Part shown: in pieces, positions 7,961 to 57,177 of the stretch
Position numbering within the stretch: the first letter of the stretch is position 1
Layout: every line of letters begins with the position of its first letter
DNA from: Candidatus Moraniibacteriota bacterium
Lineage (GTDB): Bacteria; Patescibacteriota; Minisyncoccia; Moranbacterales; GWC2-37-73
Reading direction: 5' to 3'
Length of the DNA stretch: 64,000 nt
Assembly (NCBI GenBank): GCA_035390125.1
Contig: DAOOTD010000001.1
Span: 116,003-180,002, forward strand
The notes under the pieces: model-generated
What the model was told of the DNA's origin: nothing
Databases searched by the model: none
Seen by the model: only the letters and a program-made list of their open reading frames with translations
Translations under genes and position numbers: made by a program

Positions 7961-8007
7961 AGAAAAACATTAAAAATCACTGTGTATATTATAGCACATA
8001 AATTTTA

Positions 8008-8133
8008 CCCCCACACCAATTCGGCACAGTGCCATAAGCACAAAAAATATCCCTATCAGTTATTTATTTAAAAAAATTAACGCAATACATTTTAATAAAA
8101 TTCATCTGCTAAAGTACCAGATTGGTGTGGGGG
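8008..8133. repeat. 13-bp perfect inverted repeat (CCCCCACACCAAT / ATTGGTGTGGGGG) enclosing ~100 nt
   Basis: Read directly from the sequence at 8008-8020 and 8121-8133. An internal GGCAC-A-GTGCC mini-hairpin is also present. Lies between the fmt stop and the rhodanese promoter. Confidence 0.6.
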
Positions 8134-8135
8134 TT

Positions 8136-9125
8136 TTATTGAAGTATGCTTCCTATAAAACCGGGTTTTCCATTTGCAAATTCCTGGGTCTTCATCTTTT
8201 TCTTTCCTTCCTGCTGGATTTCTTTGATAAGAATAATTCCGCTGGCAGCCTGTACAGCGATATCGTTGCCAATTCTGAAAACTTCTCCCTCCCTGTATTT
8301 TTCCAAAGCATTCTTTTCCTGAAGAGAAATGGAGATTAGTTTTATGCGGACAGTTTTTGAATCAGTTTTCCAATAAGAAAAAATTCCTGGCCAGGGAGTA
8401 AGCGCGCGATAACGGTTATAAATAGATTTGGCATTCCCATTCCAATTTACATGTCCATCTTCGCGTTCAATGAGTTGACAGGAAGTTGCATTTTTGTTGT
8501 CCTGAGGCTGCTGTTTGATTTTTCCTTTTGTCCACTGAGGAATTGTTTTCAGAAGCAAATCCGATCCTAAAAGCGAAAATTTTTCCATTAAAGTTTTTGT
8601 GTTGTCGTCAGGAGATATGGCTATTTTTTCCTGTGCCAGGATGTCTCCGGTATCAACTCCCTTATCCATCAGCATGATAGTAACGCCCGTTTCTGTTTCT
8701 CCGTTAATGAGGGAGTTCTGAACAGGCGAAGGTCCACGATATTTTGGAAGCAGAGAAGCATGCACATTTATAAAACCAAACTTGGGTATGTCCAAAGCTG
8801 ACTCAGGAATAATTTTTCCATAAGCGGCAACAACCGTCATTTCCGGATTCAATTCTCTAAGTTTCCTTATTGCTTCATCATTAAATTTATCTGGCTGAAA
8901 AACAGGAATCTTATGGATTTCTGCCAATTTTTTTACAAGAGGAGAAGCTTCTTCATGCTGGCGTCCGACTTTAGTGTCAGGTTTAGTGAAGACGCCAATA
9001 ACATGATATTTTTTTATCAGAGATTCAAGTATGGCAGCCGATAATTCAGAAGTTCCCATAAAAACCACTGAAAGATTTGCTTCTTTTGAATGTGGTTTTA
9101 CTTTGTCTCCTTTTTTATTGGGCAT
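8136..9125 (-). CDS. fmt: Methionyl-tRNA formyltransferase
   Basis: FMGTSELSAAILESL N-terminus and the HASLLPKYRGPSPVQNSLINGETETGVTIM formyltransferase core. Overlaps def as in def-fmt operons. Confidence 0.9.
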   Translation of the reverse strand: MPNKKGDKVKPHSKEANLSVVFMGTSELSAAILESLIKKYHVIGVFTKPDTKVGRQHEEASPLVKKLAEIHKIPVFQPDKFNDEAIRKLRELNPEMTVVAAYGKIIPESALDIPKFGFINVHASLLPKYRGPSPVQNSLINGETETGVTIMLMDKGVDTGDILAQEKIAISPDDNTKTLMEKFSLLGSDLLLKTIPQWTKGKIKQQPQDNKNATSCQLIEREDGHVNWNGNAKSIYNRYRALTPWPGIFSYWKTDSKTVRIKLISISLQEKNALEKYREGEVFRIGNDIAVQAASGIILIKEIQQEGKKKMKTQEFANGKPGFIGSILQ

Positions 9126-10859: not shown

Positions 10860-10896
10860 CCGGTCGGAAAAAATTTTTAACGGCAGTTTTTTTATT
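10860..10896 (+). terminator. Rho-independent terminator
   Basis: CTGCCGGTCGG-loop-CGGCAG hairpin followed by T7. Confidence 0.65.
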
Positions 10897-10925
10897 GACA
10901 AATCCGGGGCGACGTGCTATCATTG
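10897..10925 (+). promoter_or_regulatory. Sigma70-like promoter for the isochorismatase-family gene
   Basis: TTGACA-17 nt-TATCAT. Followed by SD AGGAGG 8 nt before ATG 11003. Confidence 0.55.
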
Positions 10926-11002: not shown

Positions 11003-11551
11003 ATGGAAGTTGTTGGCAGTCCCAGACGGAAGGGCAGAGAAAAGGCGTTTAATCTTTTGGAAGAAAATATCGCTGTCATGTTGGTTGATATGCAGGAGGA
11101 TTTTGTTAAGCATTTGAGAAGAGGAGAAGCTGACCGTATAATTCCCAACCAGCTGGCAATCCTCAAGCGGTGCCGCGAACTCAGCATCCCGGTAGTTGTC
11201 CTGGAATTGAGAGTCAAGGAATTCGGGAAGACCATCAAAATCCTCATGGATGAAATTTCCAAAAATCCATCCAAATGGGTAATCGAAAAGGATTTCGACG
11301 ATGGCTTTTACCTGACAAACCTTGATTCATCCCTGAAATATTTAAATATTAAAAAAATATTTATAATGGGGATAAACGCGGATTTTTGCGTAAGGGATAC
11401 TGCCAGGACTGCGATCAAGCTGGGGTACAAAATAGTAACCAGTGGGCATGTCATTGCGGGCCAACCAGATCACAGCAAAAACAACAGCATCATCTGGTTC
11501 GCGAACAATGGCAGTTGCGTCAGCAACATCGCCAGGTTTGTGGGAAAATAA
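11003..11551 (+). CDS. Isochorismatase-family cysteine hydrolase
   Basis: GINADFCVRDTARTA catalytic-Cys motif and overall isochorismatase fold length. Confidence 0.75.
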   Translation: MEVVGSPRRKGREKAFNLLEENIAVMLVDMQEDFVKHLRRGEADRIIPNQLAILKRCRELSIPVVVLELRVKEFGKTIKILMDEISKNPSKWVIEKDFDDGFYLTNLDSSLKYLNIKKIFIMGINADFCVRDTARTAIKLGYKIVTSGHVIAGQPDHSKNNSIIWFANNGSCVSNIARFVGK

Positions 11552-11582
11552 CCTAATATTTTTTATCCGCCTCGTAACTCAT

Positions 11583-11627
11583 AGCCGGCCCGTAAAACAT
11601 AAGCCGGCTTTTTTTGTGGCTTGAATG
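11583..11627 (+). terminator. Hairpin terminator plus conserved TTTTTTTGTGGCTTGAAT motif (copy C of a 3-copy module)
   Basis: AGCCGGC-loop-GCCGGCT hairpin, T7, then GTGGCTTGAAT. The same tail motif occurs at 13991-14002 and 14954-14967. Confidence 0.55.
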
Positions 11628-11710
11628 ATTTAAAATTTTTAAAAATAAAATATTTATAATAAAAAAACACCCGGACGCGGTATAATGTTATACCGGCCGG
11701 GCGTTGTCCT

Positions 11711-12964
11711 TTACGGATAAGCAATGACCGTTAATCGCTTATCTGGTGCCAGAAATGAAAGAACTTCTTCGACATCATTCGTGCTGATTTTTTTCCTTTC
11801 CCTGATCGTTTCACTCATCGGAATAATCCGTGAAAAATGGCCGATGTCACTCATTGAGTTTTGGCAAATTTTCGAATATGAACTATCAATGAGCAGCGGA
11901 TCATTGATAGCTAATTCCTTCACCTGTTTGAACAATTTTTTGTTGCCGGGAGTCTTTTTGATGCATGAGTCAACCAATTTTTCTATATGGGGCAGAAAGT
12001 CTGTTTTCAAGGGAATCTCTATTTCAAACTTGTACAAATCCTGAAAACTATCATAACCAGTGCCTATTTCATACGACCACCCTCTTTTCTCACGAATTTC
12101 CTGAAAAAGCATTTTTCCAAGAAGATTTTTGAAAAAGTGCATCTTTTCCAAGCTTATTCCTCCGGGCAAAGCCACATAGGATTTGTAGGTTCCGTGCTGC
12201 ATAGCGTTTTCCTTGCCGAACAACATCGACATTTTGATATCAAACCTTGTCATGGCTGAGTAATCAGGAACGCACGGTTCCGGTGAAAAATTTCTTCGGC
12301 CCGGCTTTGACTGACCAAAGGGGCTCTTCATTAAAAAATCGGCAATAACTTGCGGAGGCATTTTTCCAATAGCCACAAGGCTCATATTGGCCGGAACATA
12401 GAAACGATCGAAAAATCTTTGCAGATTTTTTTTAGTTATGTTCCTGATTCCATCAAGATCTCCGAGCGGTCTCAGGAAATTGGCCAGGCGATGATTGGGG
12501 AAAACACATTTTTGCACAAAAAGATCAATGTCGCGCAGAGCCTCATAAGGATGGCAGAGATAATATTCTTGAATAATAATATCTCTTTCCAACTCAATGT
12601 TTTTCGAAAGCTTCGCGTTAAGCAGCATTTCTCCGAAAATTTGCAAAGTCTCGCGTATTCTTTTGGGAACAGCCTGGCATTTGCATGTATAATATGTTTT
12701 CAGATAATCAGTACTGCCTAGATCGGCAAAACCTCCTTGTTTTTGAAAATGTAATTCAATTTCTTCTTTTTTCCAACCGGAAACATTTTCACTGACGCAG
12801 TGCTCGACAAAATGAGCAATACCGCTTTTTTCGAAAATGTCCTCACGGGCGCCGGCATGGATTATGAAGCCAAAAATTTCGAAATCCCTGTCTACCTGTG
12901 AAGCAAACAGACTTAATCCATTCGGCAAAATTATTTTCTCGAAATTGCTATATGGATCCCACAT
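11711..12964 (-). CDS. M16 (pitrilysin/insulinase) family zinc peptidase
   Basis: Inverted zinc motif HxxEH (HFVEH) near the N-terminus. 417 aa. Confidence 0.75.
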   Translation of the reverse strand: MWDPYSNFEKIILPNGLSLFASQVDRDFEIFGFIIHAGAREDIFEKSGIAHFVEHCVSENVSGWKKEEIELHFQKQGGFADLGSTDYLKTYYTCKCQAVPKRIRETLQIFGEMLLNAKLSKNIELERDIIIQEYYLCHPYEALRDIDLFVQKCVFPNHRLANFLRPLGDLDGIRNITKKNLQRFFDRFYVPANMSLVAIGKMPPQVIADFLMKSPFGQSKPGRRNFSPEPCVPDYSAMTRFDIKMSMLFGKENAMQHGTYKSYVALPGGISLEKMHFFKNLLGKMLFQEIREKRGWSYEIGTGYDSFQDLYKFEIEIPLKTDFLPHIEKLVDSCIKKTPGNKKLFKQVKELAINDPLLIDSSYSKICQNSMSDIGHFSRIIPMSETIRERKKISTNDVEEVLSFLAPDKRLTVIAYP

Positions 12965-13069
12965 TGCTTTTTATCTCCCTCCTTTAATTTTATAAGAACT
13001 TCTTATTTTTGTTTTAACAAAGCACTATAGCACAAAATTGAGTTGTAGTCAATACTGCCCAATTGGTTA

Positions 13070-13098
13070 TTGACACGGGATTAATTCCATGCTATCCT
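13070..13098 (+). promoter_or_regulatory. Sigma70-like promoter for the amidase gene
   Basis: TTGACA-17-TATCCT. The SD AAAGGAGGTGA sits ~40 nt downstream, before TTG 13137. Confidence 0.5.
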
Positions 13099-13136
13099 GT
13101 AAGGCTGTATTTTATAAATTTAAAGGAGGTGAAAAA

Positions 13137-13931
13137 TTGAGAAAAATTACGTGTAGTTTGTTGCTTTCCCTTATGGTTCTTTTTGCGTATGCCAATCCAG
13201 TTTTAGCCAGCAATGAACTGGCCGGAATGGTAGTCGTGATTGATCCGGGACATGGGGGGCAAGATCCGGGTGCGCTTGGTTTTTTTAACAAAGATGGAAA
13301 AAAACATCGAATAACCGAAAGCGCTTATTGCTACGATGTAGCTTTACGTCTGGAAAAGATCCTGAAGAAGAAAGGGGCCTTAGTAATCAAAACAACCAGG
13401 AATGGTTCTTGGTCTAGTCCGATTGCTAATAAGCCGAACGAGGTTATACGCGAAAATGGGAGGGCAGTTTTTACTTGGGACAATACACTAGTCAAAGCTG
13501 GTCCTAATGGTCTTTACCACAGAGTCGCAGTTGCCAATAATGCGCTCAGAAAATTTGGTATGCGCCGGGTAGTATTTATTTCTGTGCATTTTGATGTTTT
13601 AGGGCAAAAAACGTTGGAATCGGCGCGGATAATAACTGGAAAGAGTGCCAATGATCTAAGTAGTTTGTTGGAGGATGAACTGGAAAATGAGCGCCGGGTT
13701 AGCAATATCGGAAAACCCGTCGTGAAAAATGGCGATAAGGCACATGGAATAAAGCGTATTTATGTTCTTGGAGATACTAATCGCATAAAACAGAAAGTTT
13801 TAATTGAATTAGGAAATTTCAAGAATGAAAAGGATCTTTGGCGGATCCGCGACTACAAAGTTCGTGAGAACTATGCCCAAATTGTGGTTCGGGCGTTGAT
13901 CCGGCTCAATGCTCAACCTATAAGGCGTTAG
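13137..13931 (+). CDS. N-acetylmuramoyl-L-alanine amidase (Amidase_3) with signal peptide
   Basis: SD GGAGGTG 7 nt before TTG 13137 (the track ORF starts upstream at 13089). Signal peptide present. VVIDPGHGGQDPGA Zn-binding motif of Amidase_3. Confidence 0.8.
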   Translation: MRKITCSLLLSLMVLFAYANPVLASNELAGMVVVIDPGHGGQDPGALGFFNKDGKKHRITESAYCYDVALRLEKILKKKGALVIKTTRNGSWSSPIANKPNEVIRENGRAVFTWDNTLVKAGPNGLYHRVAVANNALRKFGMRRVVFISVHFDVLGQKTLESARIITGKSANDLSSLLEDELENERRVSNIGKPVVKNGDKAHGIKRIYVLGDTNRIKQKVLIELGNFKNEKDLWRIRDYKVRENYAQIVVRALIRLNAQPIRR

Positions 13932-13952
13932 TCATAGCGCCTTTGCAATTAA

Positions 13953-14025
13953 GGCTTAGGGGGTTTCTTGAATAAGAGGCTCCCTTTTTTTGTGGCTTGA
14001 ATATAAATAAAGATAGGGATAAAAT
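13953..14025 (+). promoter_or_regulatory. Terminator-promoter module copy A (hairpin, T-run, GTGGCTTGAAT -35, 17 nt, TAAAAT -10)
   Basis: Read from the sequence. About 45 nt nearly identical to copy B at 14929-14967 (ttcttgaataag..ggctccctttttttgtggcttgaa). Confidence 0.5.
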
Positions 14026-14110
14026 AAAAGCAAGAAAGAGGAGCAAGGGAAGTTCTTTCAATAGTTGTTTCAAATCATAAGGGAGGAACTTTATTTTTCA
14101 GGAGGCATGA

Positions 14111-14419
14111 ATGAAAAAGAAAAAAGATTATTATGATTATGATAATAATGAAAATGCAAACGGAAGAAGAACAACCAAGCATCATATTATCCCACGTTCC
14201 AGAGGAGGAGGAGAAAGGAGGAATAATACAGTAAAACTTCCCGAAAGATACCACATAGCTTGGCATACGTTTTTTGGAAATCTTACTCCCAAGGAAGCTA
14301 TTCATTACATGCGAATCATTTTTTCAAAAAATGGTAAAAAGCATGGAAAATGGACGATGGAAGATCTTTATGAACTTCAGCTCAGTATCCAAAAGAAGAA
14401 TGACAAATTCAGGAGATGA
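14111..14419 (+). CDS. Small HNH-motif endonuclease-like protein
   Basis: HHIIPRSRGGGERRNNTVKLPERYHIAWH matches the HNH (His-Asn-His) core. SD GGAGG precedes the start. Confidence 0.55.
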   Translation: MKKKKDYYDYDNNENANGRRTTKHHIIPRSRGGGERRNNTVKLPERYHIAWHTFFGNLTPKEAIHYMRIIFSKNGKKHGKWTMEDLYELQLSIQKKNDKFRR

Positions 14420-14427
14420 TCTCCAAA

Positions 14428-14461
14428 AGAGGCTATCACAAAAGTGATAGCCTCGTCTTTT
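14428..14461 (+). terminator. Rho-independent terminator
   Basis: GAGGCTATCAC-AAAAG-TGATAGCCTC hairpin followed by a T-run. Confidence 0.65.
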
Positions 14462-14490
14462 TAATGCGCACAGAAGTCAGGTTTTTAGAA

Positions 14491-14519
14491 TTGACAATCT
14501 GTCTCTGATGCAATATATT
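14491..14519 (+). promoter_or_regulatory. Sigma70-like promoter for 14563 ORF
   Basis: TTGACA-17-TATATT, with SD AAGGAGGAAG before ATG 14563. Confidence 0.5.
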
Positions 14520-14562
14520 GTATTTTGAAACAAAAAGCATTTGATTATAAGGAGGAAGAAAA

Positions 14563-14901
14563 ATGAAGCGATATAGAATGCCAAGAGTTACAAGAAGGTT
14601 TGAGGTGACGTCAACGGAATTAATAACAATTCCGAACACAAGAAAAGAAGAGCTGATAGTTAATGTCATGATTGATGGGGGAGAAGTGCCGATATCAGCT
14701 GATAAGCAGTTCCGGAAAAAGTTTCAAAGACCAGGCAAAAAATATGCCACGCTCAATACGACGCGGTTGCAGACAATCGGGGAAACCAGGCCGAGGGAAA
14801 TTGAGGTGGAATATACCGGACACATGGATTGCCCTTTCCGCTTTTTGGGCAGAGAAATAGATGCCTGGTTTGAAAGAGTAAAACAGGCGATGAAAAAGTG
14901 A
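14563..14901 (+). CDS. Hypothetical protein (partner of the HNH gene in the cassette)
   Basis: 112-aa ORF with strong SD, own promoter and downstream hairpin. No recognisable family. Confidence 0.45.
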   Translation: MKRYRMPRVTRRFEVTSTELITIPNTRKEELIVNVMIDGGEVPISADKQFRKKFQRPGKKYATLNTTRLQTIGETRPREIEVEYTGHMDCPFRFLGREIDAWFERVKQAMKK

Positions 14902-14928
14902 ATGAAAAACGCAACTGCGTGTGGGGAC

Positions 14929-14990
14929 TTCTTGAATAAGGAGTCCCTGTTTTTTTGTGGCTTGAAGAAGAGGGGGAAGGGGAGTAAAAT
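14929..14990 (+). promoter_or_regulatory. Terminator-promoter module copy B (GGGGACT..AGTCCC hairpin, T7, GTGGCTTGAAG -35, 17 nt, TAAAAT -10)
   Basis: Read from the sequence. A direct repeat of copy A. Confidence 0.5.
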
Positions 14991-15017
14991 AAAAACATAA
15001 ATCTAAAAATCAAAAAT

Positions 15018-16223
15018 ATGAAAATGGAAGACCAAATCAACAGGTGGCTTGAATCTGGAATCATAACACAGGAGCAAGCCCAGCAGATGTTCTATGATGT
15101 AAGTCAGGACAATAAAGAGGAGCGCTCCAATAAATTTATCGTTGCTGTTTCCACAATCGGATCAGTGTTGCTTGGCATCGGGGCAATTCTTTTTGTTGCT
15201 TCAAATTGGAGTGTCATCAATGATTTTTTTAAAATTTTAATTTTAGTGGGCAGTACCTTGGGGACATATTACTTGGGATATTTGTTTAAATATGATAAAC
15301 AAAATTTGCCAAAAGTTGGAGCAGCCTTATTTTTTCTCGGGGCACTTCTTTTTGGAGCAAGCATATTTTTGATTGCACAGATGTATAATATTAATGCAAA
15401 CAACCATGTTTTACTTTTGATATGGCTAATAGGCGTGCTTCCGCTAGTGTATGCTTTTAACTCGGAATCAATTGCCGCACTATCAGCAATGCTCCTCCTG
15501 ACTTGGATCGGATTTTTTATTTTTAGAAATGGCGATCCAAGCACATTCATGTTTCATTCACTGCCTGTCATTTATTTAACATCAGGCGCATTGCTCCTCA
15601 GTCTTGGGGGATTGCACTATTTCAAGCCAGACTTGCAGAAAGTGGCAAGAGTCTTTAGGTTGGCAGGTCTCGAGGTGGCCATGATTTCGCTTTTTCTTCT
15701 AACTTTTGAATTTTTTTCCAAAGAATATAAAGAACATATTCATGCATATTCAGCGGGAGCCGGAGATATGTCCACTCAATTGGCTATAGGCGTTGTCCTA
15801 TTTTCAGTGTTGGCAATCATAGGCCTTGTGGTGAATTTATTTTTTAATCCTTCTGAATCAGAAACCAACGAGCTTGAAAGCTATGTGTCACTAGGGCTGG
15901 TCGGGTTTACATTGTTTTTCTTTTTCTTTCCATCCGAGTCAATCATATATACCTTGATATATAATTTAATTTTTGGCTTACTGGCATTGTTCTTCATTTT
16001 CATCGGTTACAATAAATCAGATATTAAAATTGTTAATGTCGGAATTTTTTGGATGTCTGTTTTTATCTTCGCGAAATATTTTGATTTTTTCTGGGATTTA
16101 TTGGACAGATCGATATTCTTTATAATCGGAGGACTAATTTTAGTGTTGGGCGGAATAGCGCTTGAAAAAAAGAGGAAACAGCTCAAAGAAAGTTTTGTCC
16201 AAATTAACCAGGAAAGCTTATGA
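15018..16223 (+). CDS. DUF2157-type polytopic membrane protein
   Basis: About 10 TM helices after a cytoplasmic N-terminus. Translationally coupled to a GDYXXLXY protein, the known partner of DUF2157. Confidence 0.6.
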   Translation: MKMEDQINRWLESGIITQEQAQQMFYDVSQDNKEERSNKFIVAVSTIGSVLLGIGAILFVASNWSVINDFFKILILVGSTLGTYYLGYLFKYDKQNLPKVGAALFFLGALLFGASIFLIAQMYNINANNHVLLLIWLIGVLPLVYAFNSESIAALSAMLLLTWIGFFIFRNGDPSTFMFHSLPVIYLTSGALLLSLGGLHYFKPDLQKVARVFRLAGLEVAMISLFLLTFEFFSKEYKEHIHAYSAGAGDMSTQLAIGVVLFSVLAIIGLVVNLFFNPSESETNELESYVSLGLVGFTLFFFFFPSESIIYTLIYNLIFGLLALFFIFIGYNKSDIKIVNVGIFWMSVFIFAKYFDFFWDLLDRSIFFIIGGLILVLGGIALEKKRKQLKESFVQINQESL

Positions 16224-16741
16224 ATAAAAAAAACATTTTTTTGATAATCGGTGTTTTCTGGATAGTGCTGATTGCCGGATTCATAGGCATTAAGGAGTTT
16301 ACCTTAAGAACAGGAACTGAAGTGTTGCTGAAAACGCTGCCTGTTGACCCAAGAGATTTATTCAGGGGTGATTATGTCGTTTTACGATATGAAGTCAGCA
16401 CAATAAATGAAAATACGTTTTTGCCTAATGCTTCAGCTTTTAAAGTTGGTGACAGTGTCTATGTGCTGCTGGATATTGGTAGCGATAAGATTGCAAAAGC
16501 TAAGAGCATAAGCAAACAAATCCCAGAAGACAGCTATTTTATGAAAGGTACGGTCAAGAACGTTTTTGGAAACAAACTGAACATAGAATATGGTATTGAA
16601 AGCTATTTCGTGCCAGAGGGTAAGGGCAGAGAAATAGAAAAGAATATAGGCAATATTTACGCTAAAATAGCAATTGATAAATTTGGAAACGCTGTAATAA
16701 AATCGTTGGTTTTAGACGGAAAAGAAATAGACTTAAATTAG
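16220..16741 (+). CDS. GDYXXLXY-domain protein
   Basis: N-terminal TM, then FRGDYVVLRY, which matches the GDYXXLXY signature. 4-nt overlap with the upstream gene. Confidence 0.7.
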   Translation: MNKKNIFLIIGVFWIVLIAGFIGIKEFTLRTGTEVLLKTLPVDPRDLFRGDYVVLRYEVSTINENTFLPNASAFKVGDSVYVLLDIGSDKIAKAKSISKQIPEDSYFMKGTVKNVFGNKLNIEYGIESYFVPEGKGREIEKNIGNIYAKIAIDKFGNAVIKSLVLDGKEIDLN

Positions 16742-16795
16742 TGCCTTGTTTAAAGTAGAATAAAAGTATTAAGTAACATCTTCAGTAACAAAATT

Positions 16796-17260
16796 ATGAA
16801 GATAAGAAAAGCTAATAAAAAGGATATCGAAAAGCTGGTGGAAATGAATGCACGCTTGTTTGATTATCATGCCAAACTTGATAAATATTACCGCTTGGGC
16901 AAAGAAACTAAAAAAGACTACAAAAAACATCTAAAAAATGTCATCTCAACAAGAAAATACCGGATACTTATTGCTGAAGAAAATGAAAAGCCAGTCGGTT
17001 TTCTGGCAGGCCGGATCGACAAGCCTCGCTCTTACGCTAAACCGAAAAAGATAGGAATGATAAGTTCGGCTTTTATTCTTCCGAAATATCGCCGGATGGG
17101 GATTGGCAAATTGATGTTTGAGGATTTTTTAAAGTGGTGTCAGGATAAAAAAATTAAAAACATCGAGCTTTCGGTAGACTATCGAAATCAAATTGGCGGA
17201 AGCGCGTGGAAAAAGTTTGGTTTTAAGGATTTTATGAAAAGAATGAGACTGGATTTATAG
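16796..17260 (+). CDS. GNAT family N-acetyltransferase
   Basis: Acetyl-CoA binding motif RRMGIGKLM (R/Q-x-x-G-x-G/A). Confidence 0.8.
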   Translation: MKIRKANKKDIEKLVEMNARLFDYHAKLDKYYRLGKETKKDYKKHLKNVISTRKYRILIAEENEKPVGFLAGRIDKPRSYAKPKKIGMISSAFILPKYRRMGIGKLMFEDFLKWCQDKKIKNIELSVDYRNQIGGSAWKKFGFKDFMKRMRLDL

Positions 17261-18040: not shown

Positions 18041-18075
18041 CCTTGGATCTCCGCAGATTTCCAAGGGTTTTTTCT
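18041..18075 (+). terminator. Rho-independent terminator
   Basis: AACCCTTGGA-loop-TCCAAGGGTT followed by T6. Confidence 0.65.
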
Positions 18076-18128
18076 TTTTGCCAAAGGTAATTTTTGGGAG
18101 TAAAATTAAATTGTTAAGTAACAAAATT

Positions 18129-18689
18129 ATGGATTTTGAAAAATTAAAAGAAAGTAAGCGACCAATAGAAAACCTACTTAATGTTGAAGTTGAAACCGAA
18201 CGGCTTAAATTAAAACCAGTGTCTTTGGAATATAAAGATATGATTTTTTCAGCATTTACTGATGAAGTAACAAAATTCATGTTTCCTTCAACGCCGAAGC
18301 AAATAGAAGATACTGAAAAATTTATCAAAGATTCAATAGATGAAATGGAAAAGGGTATAAATTTCTTAATAAGCATTTTCAATAAAGAGACAAATGAATT
18401 TTTAGGCGGGGGAGGAATTCATGATTTGAATACAAAAACTCCTGGATTGGGGATTTGGATAAAAAAATCAGCTCATGGAAACAAATATGGAAGAGAGGCG
18501 ATTACGGGACTTAAGGAGTGGGCTGATAAAAATTTAGACTACGAATATCTGTTGTATCCTGTTGTGAAAGAAAACATTGCCAGCAGAAAAATCCCAGAAT
18601 CACTGGGCGGAAAAGTAGTAAGAGAATTTATAAAGAAAAAACAAAATGGAGAAGATATGGAATTGGTAGAATATAGAATTTATAAGTAA
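18129..18689 (+). CDS. GNAT family N-acetyltransferase (RimL/RimJ-like)
   Basis: The ATG at 18129 follows the terminator; the track ORF starts inside the terminator. GNAT fold with GIWIKKSAHGNKYGREA. Confidence 0.7.
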   Translation: MDFEKLKESKRPIENLLNVEVETERLKLKPVSLEYKDMIFSAFTDEVTKFMFPSTPKQIEDTEKFIKDSIDEMEKGINFLISIFNKETNEFLGGGGIHDLNTKTPGLGIWIKKSAHGNKYGREAITGLKEWADKNLDYEYLLYPVVKENIASRKIPESLGGKVVREFIKKKQNGEDMELVEYRIYK

Positions 18690-18748: not shown

Positions 18749-19453
18749 ATGGCCAAGAAGCAACTGTTACCATTTATAAAAAACGAAGACTTATATAAAC
18801 ATGTAAAAATGGTTTTAAATGTTGCAAAAAACGCAACAAATAATGCTGAAAAAAAAATTTATAGTAATGTCATAGATCCATTCTCTGCATTATTTGATGC
18901 ATCAAATCAAAACATATCATTATCTGAATGGATAAAACAAGAAAAATCGAGACAAACACAGAAAACACTCCAAAATGCTATAGGTGAATTTCATCAAAAT
19001 ATATTGGGGTCAATGTCTGGATGGGAAAATTTAAAAACTGGTTCAGTTTCAGATCTTTCTAATAAAAATAAAAAAATAATTGCCGAAGTAAAAAATAAAT
19101 ATAATACAACGAAAGGTAATCACAAGACGGCAATTTATGATGACTTCAAAAAATTACTTAAAAAAGATTACAAAGGATACGAAGCGTATTACGTAGAGAT
19201 TATACCTAAAGGACGAAATGTTTATAATAAGCCTTTTACACCTCCAGATAATCGAACGGGGAAAAGAAGACCAAAAAATATAAAAATCAAAATAATTGAT
19301 GGTAAAACTTTCTATGATTTAGCTAGCGGCTATCCTGAATCTCTAAAGCAATTATATTTAGCTCTTCCAACTGCAATTAGTAATGTATTGGGAAAAAAGG
19401 TAAATAAAGTAAAATCTAATGAATTCGTAGCTCTTTTCAAAAAAGCTTACTAA
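18749..19453 (+). CDS. Putative type II restriction endonuclease (partner of the adjacent m5C MTase)
   Basis: Sits immediately upstream of and co-directional with a C5 MTase. Candidate PD-(D/E)XK-like spacing SD...(12)...EVK. No family recognised by eye. Confidence 0.35.
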   Translation: MAKKQLLPFIKNEDLYKHVKMVLNVAKNATNNAEKKIYSNVIDPFSALFDASNQNISLSEWIKQEKSRQTQKTLQNAIGEFHQNILGSMSGWENLKTGSVSDLSNKNKKIIAEVKNKYNTTKGNHKTAIYDDFKKLLKKDYKGYEAYYVEIIPKGRNVYNKPFTPPDNRTGKRRPKNIKIKIIDGKTFYDLASGYPESLKQLYLALPTAISNVLGKKVNKVKSNEFVALFKKAY

Positions 19454-19469
19454 GAAACTATAAATTAAT

Positions 19470-19515
19470 AACCCTTGCATAATGCAAGGGTTATTTGTTA
19501 TAATAGAACTATAAC
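19470..19515 (+). promoter_or_regulatory. Hairpin (AACCCTTGCA-TAA-TGCAAGGGTT) plus palindrome GTTATAATAGAACTATAAC upstream of the MTase gene
   Basis: Read from the sequence. The palindrome is a candidate operator for the MTase N-terminal HTH domain. Confidence 0.45.
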
Positions 19516-19533
19516 AAATAATGAAAACAAAAA

Positions 19534-20775
19534 ATGGATCAAACAATGACAATTTCTGATGCAGCTATTCAATTGGGTGTTTCAGCAGACACAATAAGAC
19601 GATGGGACAAAAAAGGTCTCATTAAGGCTGATCGTTCAGACTTAAATTATCGCCTATTTAATATCGAAGAAATAAAGCGCATTTACAATAAGGTTTCAGG
19701 GACTTTTACTGCGAATAATTATAAAATACTTAAAGATAATAAAAAAACTAAATATACAACGATAGAACTTTTTGCAGGAACTGGTGGTACTGCTATTGGT
19801 TTTGAAAATGCAGGATTAAATCATGTATTGCTTAATGAATGGGATAAAGATGCAGTCGAAACTCTTAAAATCAATAAACCAAAATGGAATGTAATTGGTG
19901 GTGATATTGCGAACGTAGATTTTAAAGGAATTAAAGCGGACATAGTTCAGGGAGGGTTCCCTTGTCAAACATTTAGTTATGCTGGGAAAAAAATGGGTTT
20001 TGAAGACACAAGAGGAACGATGTTTTTTGAGTTTGCGCGATGCGTGAAAGAAGTTAAACCAAAAATTGCAGTTGGTGAAAATGTAAGAGGATTGCTCAGG
20101 CATGATAATGGTAAGACACTTAGTACGATGGTAAAAATAATGAAGGATCTTGGATATAAAGTGCAATACAGAGTTGTTCGATCACAATATTTAGATGTTC
20201 CTCAAAAAAGAGAGCGACTTATTATTATTGCCATTAGAAATGATTTGAAAATTCCGTTTATTTTTCCAAAAGAAAAAGATTACACAATTTCAATAAAAGA
20301 AGCCTTAAAAAATTGTCCGAAATCAGCAGGGCAAGAATATCCAGAAAAAAAGAAAAAAATACTGTCTCTTATTCCGCCCGGAGGATATTGGAGAGATTTA
20401 CCCGTAAAATTACAGAAGGAATATATGGGAGCAAGTTTTTATATGGGAGGTGGAAAAACTGGTATGGCGAGAAGATTATCATGGGATGAACCAAGTCTAA
20501 CACTTACTTGTAGCCCAGCACAAAAACAAACAGAAAGATGCCATCCTAAAGAAACACGTCCATTGACTGTTAGAGAATATGCGCGCATACAAACTTTTCC
20601 AGATAGCTGGAAATTTCAAGGATCAACTTCCTCACAATATAAACAAATAGGAAATGCGGTTCCATGCAATCTCGGTTATCATATAGGAAAATGTTTAATT
20701 GCGATGCTTGAAAATAAACCAGATTTAAAAACAATGGAAATTGTTTATCCAAGTAGTCAGAAGAGTTTATTTTAA
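19534..20775 (+). CDS. DNA (cytosine-5)-methyltransferase with N-terminal MerR-like HTH domain
   Basis: N-terminus ISDAAIQLGVSADTIRRWDKKGLI is a MerR-type HTH. Catalytic FPCQTFSYAGK (PCQ, motif IV), ENV (motif VI) and C-terminal QIGNAVP. Confidence 0.85.
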   Translation: MDQTMTISDAAIQLGVSADTIRRWDKKGLIKADRSDLNYRLFNIEEIKRIYNKVSGTFTANNYKILKDNKKTKYTTIELFAGTGGTAIGFENAGLNHVLLNEWDKDAVETLKINKPKWNVIGGDIANVDFKGIKADIVQGGFPCQTFSYAGKKMGFEDTRGTMFFEFARCVKEVKPKIAVGENVRGLLRHDNGKTLSTMVKIMKDLGYKVQYRVVRSQYLDVPQKRERLIIIAIRNDLKIPFIFPKEKDYTISIKEALKNCPKSAGQEYPEKKKKILSLIPPGGYWRDLPVKLQKEYMGASFYMGGGKTGMARRLSWDEPSLTLTCSPAQKQTERCHPKETRPLTVREYARIQTFPDSWKFQGSTSSQYKQIGNAVPCNLGYHIGKCLIAMLENKPDLKTMEIVYPSSQKSLF

Positions 20776-52553: not shown

Positions 52554-52653
52554 ATCTTCTTTATTTTTCTTTATTAAAGCTTTTTAATGATACTATGAAC
52601 GGATATTTTTGGCAAAATAAAAAGGCTGTCTTCGCGACAACCTTTTGTCTTTT

Positions 52654-54533: not shown

Positions 54534-55907
54534 TTACAGTTGCGGGACTTTCTCAACCCGCTTCTCCTTCGCAAACCGGTCGGCCGCATCCGGTCCATAA
54601 AGAACATCAATGCAACCTGCCCATAAGAAATAATCTTGGGCAATCAGCCGATCCGCTTCCGCTTGATTGGCACGAATATCATGCCCACGGAAGTAATTGC
54701 GTTCCGCGATCTTAAACTGTTCGATCGCCGAGTTGAGATATCGTTTATCTCCTGTACACTGGTACAGGTCAACATACGCTTCTGCCAACTTGGAGCGCAA
54801 CTGGAGGTTATTTAAGCACCATCTGGTGCACTCTTTGATACGCTGTTTCAACTCTTCAATCCGAGTAAAAATACTGCTCGGATCGCAAGCTTTCACTTGC
54901 GGTGCCGGAGCTGCCGGAGGAGGAACGACCTTAGGCTCAGGTTTCGGCGCCGGAGGCGGAGGGGGCGTACAAACATCAGGTTGGTACCCGACATTCGCAT
55001 ACGCTACCACCTTAACTTGGTATGCCACTTCTGTAAGGGAAAAGGCATTGCCGGTAACGGCTCCTAAAGAGCCTGACCCAGCACCTTTTCCGTCCACGCC
55101 GGAGCCAGTGAAACCGATTCCTAAACTGGAACCGGAATTATGCCTGTCAACCACAGAGTCCCAGTAAATTGCTACGTTAGTGGAACCGGTTTCTTCGACG
55201 GCCTGTAAAACCGTCTTAGCCAATACTTCATCTACTGGCCAGTTCCAGTCGCCAACGCCTTGGTAAACACCCAGTCTCCTAACTGAAGCGTTAGGGGCTA
55301 CATTTATAACTTTAATGATAGTGTTATCATCAATGCGATTATTGATTCGGCTACGTACCGAACCTTTAACTTTTTGAGAAGTCATCGCATTCCATATACT
55401 CCCGCGACCATCCATTAGCCGACCTGAATCGGCCATGGTTTTCAGCTCACCGTAGGTGAATTGGCTATAGTCTGGATCACAGACAACGCCTTTCCAACCC
55501 TTGGGCACTTCGGACGTCGGAGCGCCCACGAAGGCACTCAGTAACGGGGCAACTATGTGATTCGGCGCCTCGTTATTAATCAACATAGAGCTACTGTTAG
55601 CTCTGCTGTCGTTCCTGTTCATGTTCAGGTTGTCGTTCCTGTTCATGTTCAGGTTGTCGTTCCTGTTCATGTTCAGGTTGTCGTTCCTGTTGTTGATATT
55701 ATTTTGGTTATTGAGGTTATTAGCGTTGTTATTGCTAATATCCCCCACATTCGCACTGGCGTCGCCGCCAGTAGCACTGGCATCACCGCCGGTAGCGGTG
55801 GCGCGATTGTCATTCTCGAGTTCAATTTCGATGTCATCTGCGAACGCGAAGTTCGCAGACAGTACCATAATCACCGCGGCCAAAATGGCCAGAGCTTTTT
55901 TCTTCAT
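54534..55907 (-). CDS. Secreted repeat protein, paralog family A (N-terminal ATGGxASATGGxASA module, NRNDNLNM tandem repeats, Pro-rich linkers)
   Basis: Signal peptide. FADDIEIELENDNRATATGGDASATGGDASANVGDI shared with 56251 and 58643. SD AAGGAGGA. Confidence 0.55.
   Translation of the reverse strand: MKKKALAILAAVIMVLSANFAFADDIEIELENDNRATATGGDASATGGDASANVGDISNNNANNLNNQNNINNRNDNLNMNRNDNLNMNRNDNLNMNRNDSRANSSSMLINNEAPNHIVAPLLSAFVGAPTSEVPKGWKGVVCDPDYSQFTYGELKTMADSGRLMDGRGSIWNAMTSQKVKGSVRSRINNRIDDNTIIKVINVAPNASVRRLGVYQGVGDWNWPVDEVLAKTVLQAVEETGSTNVAIYWDSVVDRHNSGSSLGIGFTGSGVDGKGAGSGSLGAVTGNAFSLTEVAYQVKVVAYANVGYQPDVCTPPPPPAPKPEPKVVPPPAAPAPQVKACDPSSIFTRIEELKQRIKECTRWCLNNLQLRSKLAEAYVDLYQCTGDKRYLNSAIEQFKIAERNYFRGHDIRANQAEADRLIAQDYFLWAGCIDVLYGPDAADRFAKEKRVEKVPQL
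55608..55697. repeat. 24-bp tandem repeat x ~3.5 (gtcgttcctgttcatgttcaggtt) encoding (NRNDNLNM)n on the minus strand
   Basis: Read directly from the sequence. Confidence 0.8.
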
Positions 55908-56250: not shown

Positions 56251-57177
56251 TTAAATGAAATTAATTAAATATTTTTTTACACCAAATGAAGTGGCTGCTA
56301 GAGATATAACTGCAAGTCCGGCTAAAACATTGGTACCAGTTCCCGTGTTAGGTGCTTTTTTTTCACCAACGATAACCCTTGTTTTTCCGATTACATTGTG
56401 ATTCTCATCATATATATATTTGTATTTATATACATATGTTATTTTTCCATCATGACCATCGCGGCCATCTGTTCCATCATGTCCGTCATGACCGTCTGTT
56501 CCATCATGTCCGTCGTGACCATCTTCGCCGTCCTCCCCATCATGGCCATCATGACCCGGATCATCTATGTCTACATCAATCTCAGTATCAGTTCCAGTGG
56601 TTGAAGTTCCACCTGTTGTGGTTGAAGTTCCACCTGTGGCAGTGCTTGTAACTCCGGAAACACTGGTTGTGCTTGTGCTTGAAATCGTAGAAGCAGAATT
56701 TACAGTTGAAGTTGAAGAATTCATGCTGAAATTGTCGCTGTATGAAGTGCTGTCACTATAGCTAGAGTTTCCACTATTGTCATAGCTATGATCGGATCCA
56801 TGGTTGTCATAATTATCATGATCATGGCAACCCTCGCCTGAACGGTGGCAATAAGCTGAGGAATCACTATCATTGTTGTTCGTGTTTGAATTACTGTTCG
56901 TGTTTGAATTGTAATTCGTGTTTGAACTTATGTTAGTGTTTCTATTACTGATTGAATTGGAATTGTTTACAGTGTTGCTATTGCTGTTAGTGATATCACC
57001 AACAGATGCAGTGGCACTTCCGCCAGTGGCAGTGGCACTTCCGCCAGTTGATTCCGATTCATTTTCGTTATCTATGTTTATTTTAATGTCTGCAAACGCC
57101 ATATTGTTGGCAGCATAGAAAACGACTGCAGATATAACCGCTGATACTACGATAAAAATTATATTCTTCTTTGTCAT
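56251..57177 (-). CDS. Secreted surface protein, paralog family A, with (Gly-X-Asp)12 collagen-like His-rich repeat and C-terminal APNTG sorting-signal-like motif + TM + KKY
   Basis: Signal peptide. ADIKINIDNENESESTGGSATATGGSATASVGDI. Asn/Ser/Thr-rich. DPGHDGHDGEDGEDGHDGHDGTDGHDGHDGTDGRDGHDG. C-terminus KAPNTGTGTNVLAGLAVISLAATSFGVKKY. Confidence 0.6.
   Translation of the reverse strand: MTKKNIIFIVVSAVISAVVFYAANNMAFADIKINIDNENESESTGGSATATGGSATASVGDITNSNSNTVNNSNSISNRNTNISSNTNYNSNTNSNSNTNNNDSDSSAYCHRSGEGCHDHDNYDNHGSDHSYDNSGNSSYSDSTSYSDNFSMNSSTSTVNSASTISSTSTTSVSGVTSTATGGTSTTTGGTSTTGTDTEIDVDIDDPGHDGHDGEDGEDGHDGHDGTDGHDGHDGTDGRDGHDGKITYVYKYKYIYDENHNVIGKTRVIVGEKKAPNTGTGTNVLAGLAVISLAATSFGVKKYLINFI

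What the first reader, a model, noticed from the sequence alone, without database searches (positions are those of the whole stretch)
11583..14990. Three copies of a terminator / TTTTTTTGTGGCTTGAAK promoter module; two copies bracket a 2-gene HNH cassette as ~45-nt direct repeats
Copies at 13965-14002 and 14929-14967 share ttcttgaataag[a/g]g..tccc..tttttttgtggcttgaa. Each is a hairpin, a T-run, a -35-like TTGAAT/G, a 17-nt spacer and TAAAAT. Between them lie a small HNH-motif protein (14111..14419) and an unknown 112-aa protein. A third copy of the tail motif follows the terminator at 11583-11627. Direct repeats flanking an HNH gene pair resemble a small inserted or duplicated cassette. HNH genes are often mobile. 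Alternatively the motif is a lineage-specific promoter element, GTGGCTTGAA being an extended -35.
Basis: seen in the sequence. Interest (0 to 1): 0.5.

Follow-up and report, generated by a model that had tools for sequence, protein, structure and literature searches.

The report
Repeated terminator–promoter module in Moranbacteria
Three neighbouring gene junctions in this Candidatus Moranbacteria genome carry the same short "stop transcription, then start again" signal, which looks like a lineage-specific promoter type reused in front of unrelated accessory genes, and not like the borders of a mobile HNH gene cassette.

Summary
TTTTTTGTGGCTTGAA occurs exactly three times, at 11610, 13986 and 14951, each directly after a hairpin. 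No copy lies elsewhere in about 77 kb of this genome.

Copies 2 and 3 are paralogous modules of about 70 nt. They share a homologous hairpin, T7, GTGGC, TTGAAK, a 17-nt spacer and TAAAATAAAA. Copy 1 shares only 19 nt and sits between convergent genes.

The two-gene cassette reading is not supported. One strain variant lacks only the HNH unit (14004-14460). Others lack only DUF2157+GDYXXLXY (14995-16789). No variant shows a single-repeat empty site for the HNH pair. HNH homologues elsewhere mostly lack the motif.

The promoter reading is supported. The same architecture, often with a G-rich run before the -10 element, precedes unrelated genes in other low-GC, Moranbacteria-like contigs. Those genes include AbrB/HsdM, a 1103-aa protein, a secreted protein and rpsA after 5S rRNA. 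It also flanks an HNH homologue in a relative.

Most other promoters in the window are canonical TTGACA-N14-TGnTAnnnT.

Best reading: this is a locally propagated terminator-promoter junction of a second promoter class, inside a strain-variable accessory region. Promoter activity is inferred, not shown. The finding is modestly interesting.

The parts
11583..11626 (+). Copy 1. Hairpin arms AGCCGGC (11583-11589) and GCCGGCT (11603-11609), T7 (11609-11615), GTGGC (11616-11620), TTGAAT (11621-11626). It terminates the isochorismatase-family gene. No + strand gene follows it, and the nearest TAAAAT is 19 nt away (11646-11651).
   Evidence: convergent gene layout
13958..14029 (+). Copy 2. Amidase_3 terminator hairpin (13958-13985, GAAT loop, G-U pairs so specific to the + strand), T7 (13985-13991), GTGGC (13992-13996), -35-like TTGAAT (13997-14002), 17-nt spacer, -10-like TAAAAT (14020-14025), then AAAA.
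14921..14994 (+). Copy 3. Terminator hairpin of the 112-aa gene (14921-14950, homologous to the copy 2 hairpin), T7 (14950-14956), GTGGC (14957-14961), -35-like TTGAAG (14962-14967), G-rich 17-nt spacer, -10-like TAAAAT (14985-14990), then AAAA. DUF2157 starts at 15018.
14004..14460 (+). Strain-variable HNH unit: 5'UTR, HNH-like ORF (14111-14419) and its own terminator (hairpin 14429-14454 plus T-run). In contig L011 it is replaced by about 29 nt of unrelated filler. The terminator hairpin travels with HNH homologues in other genomes, with compensatory changes.
   Evidence: HNH-like status
14491..14901 (+). The 112-aa orphan gene (14563-14901) with its own canonical promoter, TTGACA-17-TATATT (14491-14519). 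This promoter is conserved in front of the 58%-identical homologue in L257. The gene is retained when HNH is absent.
14995..16789 (+). Strain-variable DUF2157 (15018-16223) + GDYXXLXY (16220-16741) segment. It is absent in L009, L010 and L012, where the copy 3 module sits directly in front of the GNAT gene.
16742..16766 (+). Degenerate module-like remnant, GTGCCTTG...AGTAGAATAAAAG, at the right edge of the variable DUF2157 segment and upstream of the GNAT gene (16796).
   Evidence: resemblance only
18070..18106 (+). Related junction: terminator T-run, TTGCCA, 17 nt, GGGAGTAAAAT in front of the Acetyltransf_3 gene. It is orthologous to the CTGCCTTGAAG-17-TAAAAT promoter in L134 and resembles the L257 junction.
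15044..15054 (+). Fourth GTGGCTTGAAT, inside the DUF2157 ORF (codons for RWLES), with no -10 at a suitable distance. Probably chance or coding-driven. It is not part of the module.

Best explanation
Each copy is a composite gene junction. An intrinsic terminator hairpin ends the upstream gene. Its U/T7 tract runs straight into a sigma-70-type promoter whose -35 hexamer (TTGAAK) carries an invariant upstream extension (T7-GTGGC). In copies 2 and 3, a TAAAAT -10 element follows 17 nt later.

The T-run probably does double duty. It serves as the terminator U-tract and as an A/T-rich UP-like element.

This is a second, minority promoter class of Candidatus Moranbacteria, distinct from the genome's usual TTGACA-N14-TGnTAnnnT promoters. 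It is found in front of unrelated, mostly accessory genes in several related genomes.

Copies 2 and 3 are paralogues. One terminator-promoter module of about 70 nt was duplicated locally. It then diverged in the spacer while the hairpin, -35 block and -10 block were kept. Copy 1 is an orphan or relic that shares only the 19-nt core.

The modules lie in a strain-variable accessory region. There, self-contained gene units (own 5' region, ORF and terminator) are gained and lost at terminator|promoter junctions. The HNH gene is one such unit. The repeats are not its borders.

Shown: the repeat, the hairpins, the block conservation, the strain indels, and recurrence of the architecture elsewhere.

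Inferred: promoter activity, the UP-like role of the T-run, duplication as the origin, and which sigma factor reads it.
For: Statistics and anatomy:
- Three exact copies, with 0/100 shuffles reaching that count.
- The hairpin plus T-run scores as a terminator. It folds better on the + strand for copies 2 and 3.
- TTGAAK-17-TAAAAT is present in copies 2 and 3.
- Conservation between copies 2 and 3 falls in blocks: hairpin to TTGAA 37/44, -10+AAAA 10/10, spacer about 5/18.

Not the generic promoter:
- About 20 upstream regions in the window have TTGACW, mostly with a TG-extended -10 and none with GTGGC.
- No further GTGGCTTGAA occurs in the window or in about 13 kb beyond its ends.

Same architecture at non-homologous loci:
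- L134: TGCCTTGAA-17-TAGAAT upstream and CTGCCTTGAAG-17-TAAAAT downstream of a 78% HNH homologue.
- L009 13460: TTTTGTGTCTTGAA-17-TAGAAT.
- L257: orthologue of copy 3 after the 112-aa homologue's terminator, with the G-rich spacer conserved.
- L027 (Candidatus Moranbacteria RIFOXYA12_FULL_35_19), L197, L149, L250 and L236: hairpin or T7, then GTGGCTTGAAT, 17 nt, then TAGAAT/TAGTAT/TAATAT/TATAAT. These precede AbrB+HsdM, a 1103-aa protein, a secreted protein, and rpsA directly after 5S rRNA.

Spacing signal: among 250 distinct public contexts of the exact 16-mer, a -10-like hexamer peaks at spacer 17, with 13 cases against about 3.4 at other offsets.

Strain indels with a left edge inside the module.

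Promoter reuse also occurs for another promoter in this lineage.

The source organism is named Candidatus Moranbacteria.
Against: - There are no transcript data, so neither termination nor initiation is demonstrated.
- Copy 1 has no downstream + strand gene and a poor -10 spacing of 19 nt. Yet it keeps the 19-mer perfectly, which a pure promoter model does not explain.
- Three copies within 3.4 kb and none in the other ~74 kb fits local duplication better than a widely used promoter class.
- The cross-genome examples L027, L149, L197, L250 and L236 were found by searching for the exact motif. Conservation of the motif itself in them is therefore by construction. Only the -10 position, the G-run and the hairpin are independent observations.
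The true frequency in Moranbacteria genomes is unknown.
- The hairpin folding z-scores are modest, at -0.7 to -2.2.
- The HNH-less variant rests on one short contig, L011.
Confidence: 0.6

Rival explanations
1. First reader's main reading. HNH plus the 112-aa gene form one inserted or duplicated cassette. Its insertion duplicated an approximately 45-nt target, which became copies 2 and 3. The HNH nuclease may mobilise the cassette or cut the motif.
For: - Copies 2 and 3 are direct repeats flanking exactly these two genes.
- The HNH gene is variably present (L011).
- Its homologues sit in different contexts in relatives.
- The left edge of the HNH indel lies right after GTGGCTTG.
Against: - The unit that varies is HNH alone, 14004-14460. 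It is bounded on the right by its own terminator, not by copy 3.
- The 112-aa gene stays, with its own conserved promoter. It neighbours an amidase gene even in a distant relative without HNH.
- No contig shows a single-repeat empty site.
- The other observed indel removes the next gene pair instead.
- HNH homologues in L133, L135, L137 and L261 lack the motif.
- The motif occurs at loci without any HNH gene.
- The protein is only weakly HNH-like and has no phage relatives.
Confidence: 0.06
2. The conserved 19-21-nt core (CCTG-T7-GTGGCTTGAA) is primarily a recombination anchor, meaning a stretch of portable homology or a recognition site. Self-contained gene units are swapped into terminator|promoter junctions at this anchor. 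Any promoter activity is secondary.
For: - Both strain indels next to the modules have their left edge inside or just after the module: after GTGGCTTG, and after TAAAATAAAA or the shared 5'UTR.
- A Band_7 unit is inserted exactly between a terminator T-run and a -35 element in L009.
- The region is rich in variable defence and accessory genes: an R-M system, GNATs, and an AcrVA2-like gene in L009.
- An identical 21-mer is found in different Moranbacteria-like genomes at non-homologous loci.
- Copy 1 keeps the core without any gene to express.
Against: - No integrase, transposase or recombinase gene lies within 10 kb on either side (Pfam lists).
- Whole-gene indels must end in intergenic DNA, and the modules fill much of these 120-180-nt spacers. 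The coincidence of junctions is therefore weak evidence.
- The junctions are not clean. There are 29-47 nt of unrelated filler and no precise repeat-to-repeat joins.
- The Band_7 insertion involves a TTGACA promoter without the motif.
- The rpsA instance after 5S rRNA is a core-gene junction.
Confidence: 0.12
3. The copies are neutral leftovers of a local segmental duplication, or of gene conversion between neighbouring terminators. They have no sequence-specific function beyond termination.
For: - All three copies lie within 3.4 kb, with none in the other ~74 kb sampled.
- Copy 1 has no gene to drive.
- Strain divergence is only 3-7%, so conservation between strains says little.
Against: - Divergence between copies 2 and 3 is concentrated in the spacer, while the -35 and -10 blocks are identical.
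- The same -35 extension, 17-nt spacing and G-run/-10 recur in other species at unrelated loci.
- The -10 element is enriched at spacer 17.
- Copy 1 and copy 2 share 19/19 nt next to completely different hairpins, which is not what a simple segmental duplication leaves.
Confidence: 0.12

Closest known systems
Putative mobile promoters / promoter propagation (Matus-Garcia, Nijveen & van Passel 2012, PMC3488235)
   Same: Homologous non-coding segments lie upstream of non-homologous genes. Copy 2 precedes HNH and copy 3 precedes DUF2157. A second example is the M16-peptidase upstream region against that of an AcrVA2-like gene.
   Different: Copies 2 and 3 reach only 76-77% identity over 50 nt or more, against the paper's cut-off of 80% or more over 50 nt or more. 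The shared segment includes the upstream gene's terminator. The core is also conserved across species at 19-21 nt only. That pattern looks more like a constrained recognition element than a recently copied 50-100-nt promoter.
Sigma-70-type promoters with an UP element or extended recognition upstream of -35 (e.g. E. coli rrnB P1; from general knowledge)
   Same: It has a -35-like TTGAAK, a 17-nt spacer, a -10-like TA(A/G)AAT, and an A/T tract at about -47 to -41, where alpha-CTD UP contacts occur.
   Different: An invariant GTGGC lies between the T-tract and the -35 element. There is a frequent G-run immediately upstream of the -10 element, in place of the TG-extended -10 used by this genome's main promoter class. 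The T-tract is at the same time the U-tract of the preceding terminator. Nothing has been tested biochemically.
Free-standing HNH homing endonuclease genes of phages and bacteria (from general knowledge)
   Same: It is a small gene with an HH...N...H core. It is variably present between strains, lies in different contexts in relatives, and carries its own expression and termination signals.
   Different: HNH membership is only sub-threshold: Pfam 18.7 bits against a 21.4 cut-off, and fold and profile hits with E>0.1. There are no phage relatives. The repeated motif is not consistently linked to the gene. No cleavage site or HEG-minus target allele is defined.
Intrinsic (Rho-independent) terminators
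   Same: Each copy has a G+C-rich hairpin followed by a T7 run, 27-31 nt after the stop codon of a co-oriented gene.
   Different: Ordinary terminators have no conserved sequence downstream of the U-tract. Here 10-11 nt after it are invariant.

Membership tests
Sigma-70-type promoter | -35-like and -10-like hexamers separated by 16-18 nt | tested here: met
   Copies 2 and 3 have TTGAAT/TTGAAG-17-TAAAAT, matching 9 of 12 positions. Copy 1 does not meet this: its nearest TAAAAT is at 19 nt.
Sigma-70-type promoter | Located upstream of, and co-oriented with, a gene at a plausible 5'UTR distance | tested here: met
   In copy 2 the -10 element ends 85 nt before the HNH ATG. In copy 3 it ends 27 nt before the DUF2157 ATG. 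This is not met for copy 1, where the next gene is convergent.
Sigma-70-type promoter | Transcription initiates downstream of the -10 element | not testable with these tools
   No transcriptome or 5'-end data are available.
Intrinsic terminator | G+C-rich stem-loop immediately followed by a U/T-run, downstream of a co-oriented ORF | tested here: met
   Copies 2 and 3 are listed by the terminator scan. Fold energies are -12 to -18 kcal/mol, with z-scores of -0.7 to -2.2. The copy 1 stem has 7 bp and a 13-nt loop, so it is weaker.
Putative mobile promoters (PMC3488235) | At least 50 nt aligned at 80% identity or more between upstream regions | tested here: not met
   Copy 2 against copy 3 gives 39/51 (76.5%) and 56/73 (76.7%). 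Only the 44-nt stretch from hairpin to TTGAA reaches 84%.
Putative mobile promoters (PMC3488235) | Flanking coding sequences are non-homologous | tested here: met
   The upstream genes are Amidase_3 and the orphan 112-aa gene. The downstream genes are HNH-like and DUF2157. These fall in different or no Pfam families.
HNH homing-endonuclease cassette bounded by a target duplication | The encoded protein is an HNH nuclease | tested here: inconclusive
   Pfam HNH scores 18.7 bits, below the 21.4 cut-off. PHROG 655 'homing endonuclease' gives E=1.2e-5. H24, H25, H48 and H52 are invariant and N39 is nearly invariant. The AF2 model shows a beta-beta-alpha fold at pLDDT 65. The top fold and profile hits are HNH domains, but with E of 0.1-3.
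HNH homing-endonuclease cassette bounded by a target duplication | The direct repeats delimit the unit that is present or absent between genomes (an empty site keeps one repeat) | tested here: not met
   L011 lacks only 14004-14460. L009, L010 and L012 lack only 14995-16789. No empty site for the gene pair is seen.
HNH homing-endonuclease cassette bounded by a target duplication | The motif travels with the HNH gene in other genomes | tested here: not met
   Only L134 has a similar promoter next to its HNH homologue. L133, L135/L136, L137 and L261-L263 do not. The motif also occurs without HNH.
MITE / REP-like dispersed element | Many dispersed copies with terminal inverted repeats, in either orientation | tested here: not met
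   There are only three copies in about 77 kb. All are on the + strand and co-oriented with flanking genes. There are no terminal inverted repeats beyond the terminator stems.
Integron-type gene cassettes (attC) | An adjacent integrase and attC recombination sites | tested here: not met
   No integrase or recombinase Pfam hit appears among genes within 10 kb on either side. attC structure itself was not modelled.

The most novel reading that the evidence does not exclude
T7-GTGGC-TTGAAK-17-(G-run)TARAAT may be the signature of a dedicated expression system in Moranbacteria and related CPR bacteria, read by an alternative sigma factor or activator. Under this reading it marks exchangeable accessory-gene units, each with a promoter in front and a terminator behind. 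The invariant 19-21-nt core would double as portable homology. That would let such units be swapped into terminator|promoter junctions without an integrase.
Probability: 0.15. Interest if true: 0.6.

Novelty: new variant of a known kind. Interest (0 to 1): 0.35.

Why it matters
Almost nothing is known experimentally about transcription signals in Candidate Phyla Radiation bacteria. These organisms are uncultured, and their annotations rest on models from E. coli and Bacillus.

A conserved, easily searchable promoter-proximal element that differs from the genome's main promoter type would be useful in three ways:
- It would give a handle for defining regulons, possibly of accessory or defence genes.
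- It would improve transcription-unit prediction in very compact genomes where terminators abut promoters.
- It would help explain how newly acquired genes obtain expression signals.

The practical result for this finding is more modest. The repeats are junction signals, not mobile-element ends. The HNH gene is an independently variable unit.

Tried and rejected
Neither returned the source genome (BLAST checks). No genome-wide copy number could be obtained. The hits were reused only as a background set and as a source of a few Moranbacteria-like instances.

2. The viral contig scan gave 52 single hits, none with the full architecture. There is no phage link.

3. Rfam gave nothing at gathering thresholds for the window, and only two chance-level hits (E about 0.9) in 11400-15200. 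No tRNA is nearby.

4. The sigma-54 (-24/-12) reading, the ECF-type reading and the Bacillus sigma-B-type reading (GTTTAA-N14-GGGTAT) were compared by eye and set aside. Spacings and hexamers fit only loosely.

5. A link between the 112-aa gene and the small gene upstream of HNH homologues in L135 was checked. There is no real similarity.

6. A simple repeat-to-repeat or microhomology deletion model was tried for the L011 and L009 junctions. The junctions contain unrelated filler, so polarity and mechanism stay open.

7. The fourth GTGGCTTGAAT in the DUF2157 ORF was tested as an internal promoter. There is no -10 at a suitable distance.

Full report
**Observation**

TTTTTTGTGGCTTGAA occurs exactly three times in the 64-kb window, at 11610, 13986 and 14951 on the + strand. 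None of 100 dinucleotide-preserving shuffles gave three matches, even with two mismatches allowed.

The shorter GTGGCTTGAA occurs a fourth time at 15044, inside the DUF2157 ORF. It occurs nowhere else. One-mismatch variants occur at chance frequency.

Each copy follows a hairpin and a T7 run.

- Copies 2 and 3 have homologous 11-13-bp stems with a GAAT loop. The stems contain G-U pairs, so they fold well only as + strand RNA.
- From hairpin to TTGAA, copies 2 and 3 match 37/44. Over the whole ~73-nt module they match 56/73.
- Both carry TTGAAK, a 17-nt spacer and TAAAATAAAA.
- Divergence is concentrated in the spacer.
- Copy 1 shares only CTTTTTTTGTGGCTTGAAT (19/19 with copy 2). It sits next to an unrelated hairpin.

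**Gene context**

The genes, in order, are:

| Coordinates | Strand | Gene |
|---|---|---|
| 11003-11551 | + | isochorismatase family |
| 11711-12964 | - | M16 peptidase |
| 13137-13931 | + | Amidase_3 |
| 14111-14419 | + | 102-aa HNH-like protein |
| 14563-14901 | + | 112-aa orphan |
| 15018-16223 | + | DUF2157 |
| 16220-16741 | + | GDYXXLXY |

Two GNATs, a HAD hydrolase and an Eco47II/Dcm restriction-modification pair follow.

Copy 1 therefore lies between convergent genes and has no + strand gene to drive. The HNH gene has its own strong terminator (14429-14454, z = -5.8). The 112-aa gene has its own TTGACA-17-TATATT promoter.

A source database names the 112-aa protein as coming from a Candidatus Moranbacteria MAG. 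No integrase or transposase is called within 10 kb on either side of the locus.

**Test of the cassette idea with natural variants**

Looking up the exact HNH and 112-aa proteins returned about 15 contigs of the same species.

- Most contigs are identical to the window.
- L011 lacks window 14004-14460. That segment is the HNH 5'UTR, ORF and terminator. In its place are about 29 nt of unrelated sequence. Copy 2 is kept (as GTGGCTTGG), and so is the 112-aa gene with its promoter.
- L009, L010 and L012 are three independent assemblies, 93-97% identical to the window. They keep both small genes but lack 14995-16789 (DUF2157+GDYXXLXY). In them the copy 3 module sits directly before the GNAT gene.
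- L009 also has a Band_7 gene unit inserted exactly between a terminator T-run and a TTGACA promoter at window ~10894.
- No contig has amidase-single repeat-DUF2157.

In a distant relative (L257), the 112-aa homologue (58% identity) neighbours an amidase gene without any HNH gene.

So the unit of variation is the single self-contained gene or gene pair. It is not the pair bracketed by the repeats.

**The HNH-like gene**

The family is small, with nine homologues among 5.8 billion clusters. It lies in different contexts in relatives: next to TspO, GNAT, R-M genes and radical SAM genes. It carries its own terminator hairpin with compensatory changes. This behaviour fits an independently mobile gene.

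HNH identity is only suggestive:

- Pfam scores below the cut-off.
- PHROG 655 gives E = 1e-5.
- The HH...H...H histidines are invariant and the N is nearly invariant.
- The AF2 model shows a beta-beta-alpha fold at pLDDT 65.
- HNH domains top the fold and profile searches, but at E = 0.1-3.
- There are no phage relatives.

Only one of five other HNH contexts (L134) has a similar promoter nearby. The motif is therefore not an HNH target or border.

**What the motif is**

Reading all upstream regions in the window shows that the usual promoter here is TTGACA-N14-TGnTAnnnT. There are about 20 clear cases, and none has GTGGC.

The repeated motif belongs to a different, rarer architecture: T-rich tract, TG(N)C, TTGAA(K/A), 17 nt often ending in a G-run, then TA(A/G)AAT. 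Independent instances are:

- L134, upstream and downstream of the HNH homologue.
- L009 13460, in a divergent promoter region.
- L257, an orthologue of copy 3 with the G-rich spacer conserved.
- Window 18070-18106, before Acetyltransf_3.

The two big motif scans were saturated by chance hits. Among those hits, several low-GC contigs carry the full architecture with the identical 19-21-mer:

- L027 (Candidatus Moranbacteria RIFOXYA12_FULL_35_19; precedes AbrB-like and HsdM genes).
- L197 (precedes a 1103-aa protein).
- L149.
- L250 (precedes a small secreted protein).
- L236/L105 (precedes rpsA, immediately after 23S-5S rRNA).

Conservation of the searched motif in them is by construction. The hairpin before the T-run, the 17-nt spacing, the -10 element and the G-run are not.

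Over 250 distinct public contexts of the 16-mer, a -10-like hexamer peaks at spacer 17, with 13 cases against about 3.4 at other offsets.

**Interpretation**

The best-supported reading is a composite terminator-promoter junction. The T7 tract ends the upstream transcript and likely acts as an UP-like element. GTGGC-TTGAAK is an extended -35 of a second promoter class in Moranbacteria.

Copies 2 and 3 are local paralogues of one such module. Copy 1 is an orphan core.

The three copies cluster within 3.4 kb, and none lies in the other ~74 kb sampled. This argues for local propagation inside a strain-variable accessory region.

Reuse of promoter DNA in front of unrelated genes is seen again for the M16-peptidase upstream region. 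That region is ~80% identical over ~100 nt to the upstream region of an unrelated gene in L009.

The phenomenon resembles 'putative mobile promoters' (PMC3488235). However, copies 2 and 3 narrowly miss that paper's threshold of 80% identity over 50 nt.

**Limits**

- Promoter and terminator activity are inferred from sequence only.
- Copy 1 keeps the core perfectly without a gene to express, and this is not explained.
- Left edges of two indels fall inside the modules. That leaves room for a role as recombination homology, but intergenic spacers here are short and the junctions are not clean.
- A literature search found no description of this motif or of CPR promoter classes in the held library.

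**Verdict**

The feature is real and the cassette interpretation is not supported. The promoter-element alternative is supported by comparative evidence. I class it as a new variant of a known kind, of modest interest.

Noticed in passing
window 12965-13075 (- strand) vs L009 13363-13470 (- strand): The promoter plus 5'UTR of the M16 peptidase gene is ~80% identical over ~100 nt to the upstream region of an unrelated 319-aa AcrVA2-like gene in a strain variant. The proteins are unrelated (E=0.83). This is a second case of promoter reuse.
   Followed up: partly
window ~10894 vs L009 5034-6053: A Band_7 (SPFH) gene unit with its own terminator is present in L009 and absent in the window. It is inserted exactly between a terminator T-run and the TTGACA of the isochorismatase promoter.
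   Followed up: partly
window 15044-15054: A fourth exact GTGGCTTGAAT lies inside the DUF2157 ORF, 87 nt after copy 3. About 0.1 such 10-mers are expected by chance in the window. No -10 follows it. The match is unexplained and is probably coding-driven or chance.
   Followed up: partly
window 16779-16798 and 18112-18131: The two GNAT acetyltransferase genes share the 5'UTR end TT(C/A)AGTAACAAAATTATG.
   Followed up: partly
window 7996-8027 / 8114-8145: A 32-nt inverted repeat (75% complementary, 86 nt apart) lies in the fmt-rhodanese intergenic region. It overlaps a GGGGGTAAAAT element and a TGCTATAAT promoter.
   Followed up: no
window 55583-55726, 56445-56525, 56872-56961: Tandem repeats of 24, 27 and 18 nt (all multiples of three) lie within ORFs of unknown function next to a sortase gene. 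They coincide with a local GC rise to 0.48. The ORFs probably encode repetitive surface proteins.
   Followed up: no
window 18749-20775 vs L009 12403-13362: The Eco47II-type restriction enzyme and Dcm methylase pair (GC ~0.30) in the window is replaced in strain variant L009 by a different gene with a weak AcrVA2-like hit. The whole 14-21 kb stretch behaves as a variable defence/accessory island.
   Followed up: no
window 10880-10900, 18070-18095, ~52560-52640 (- strand); L257 3320-3360: Terminator T-runs abut -35 elements at several other junctions (T7-A-TTGACA; TTTTTGCCAA...). Overlapping terminator/promoter signals therefore seem common in this compact genome.
   Followed up: partly
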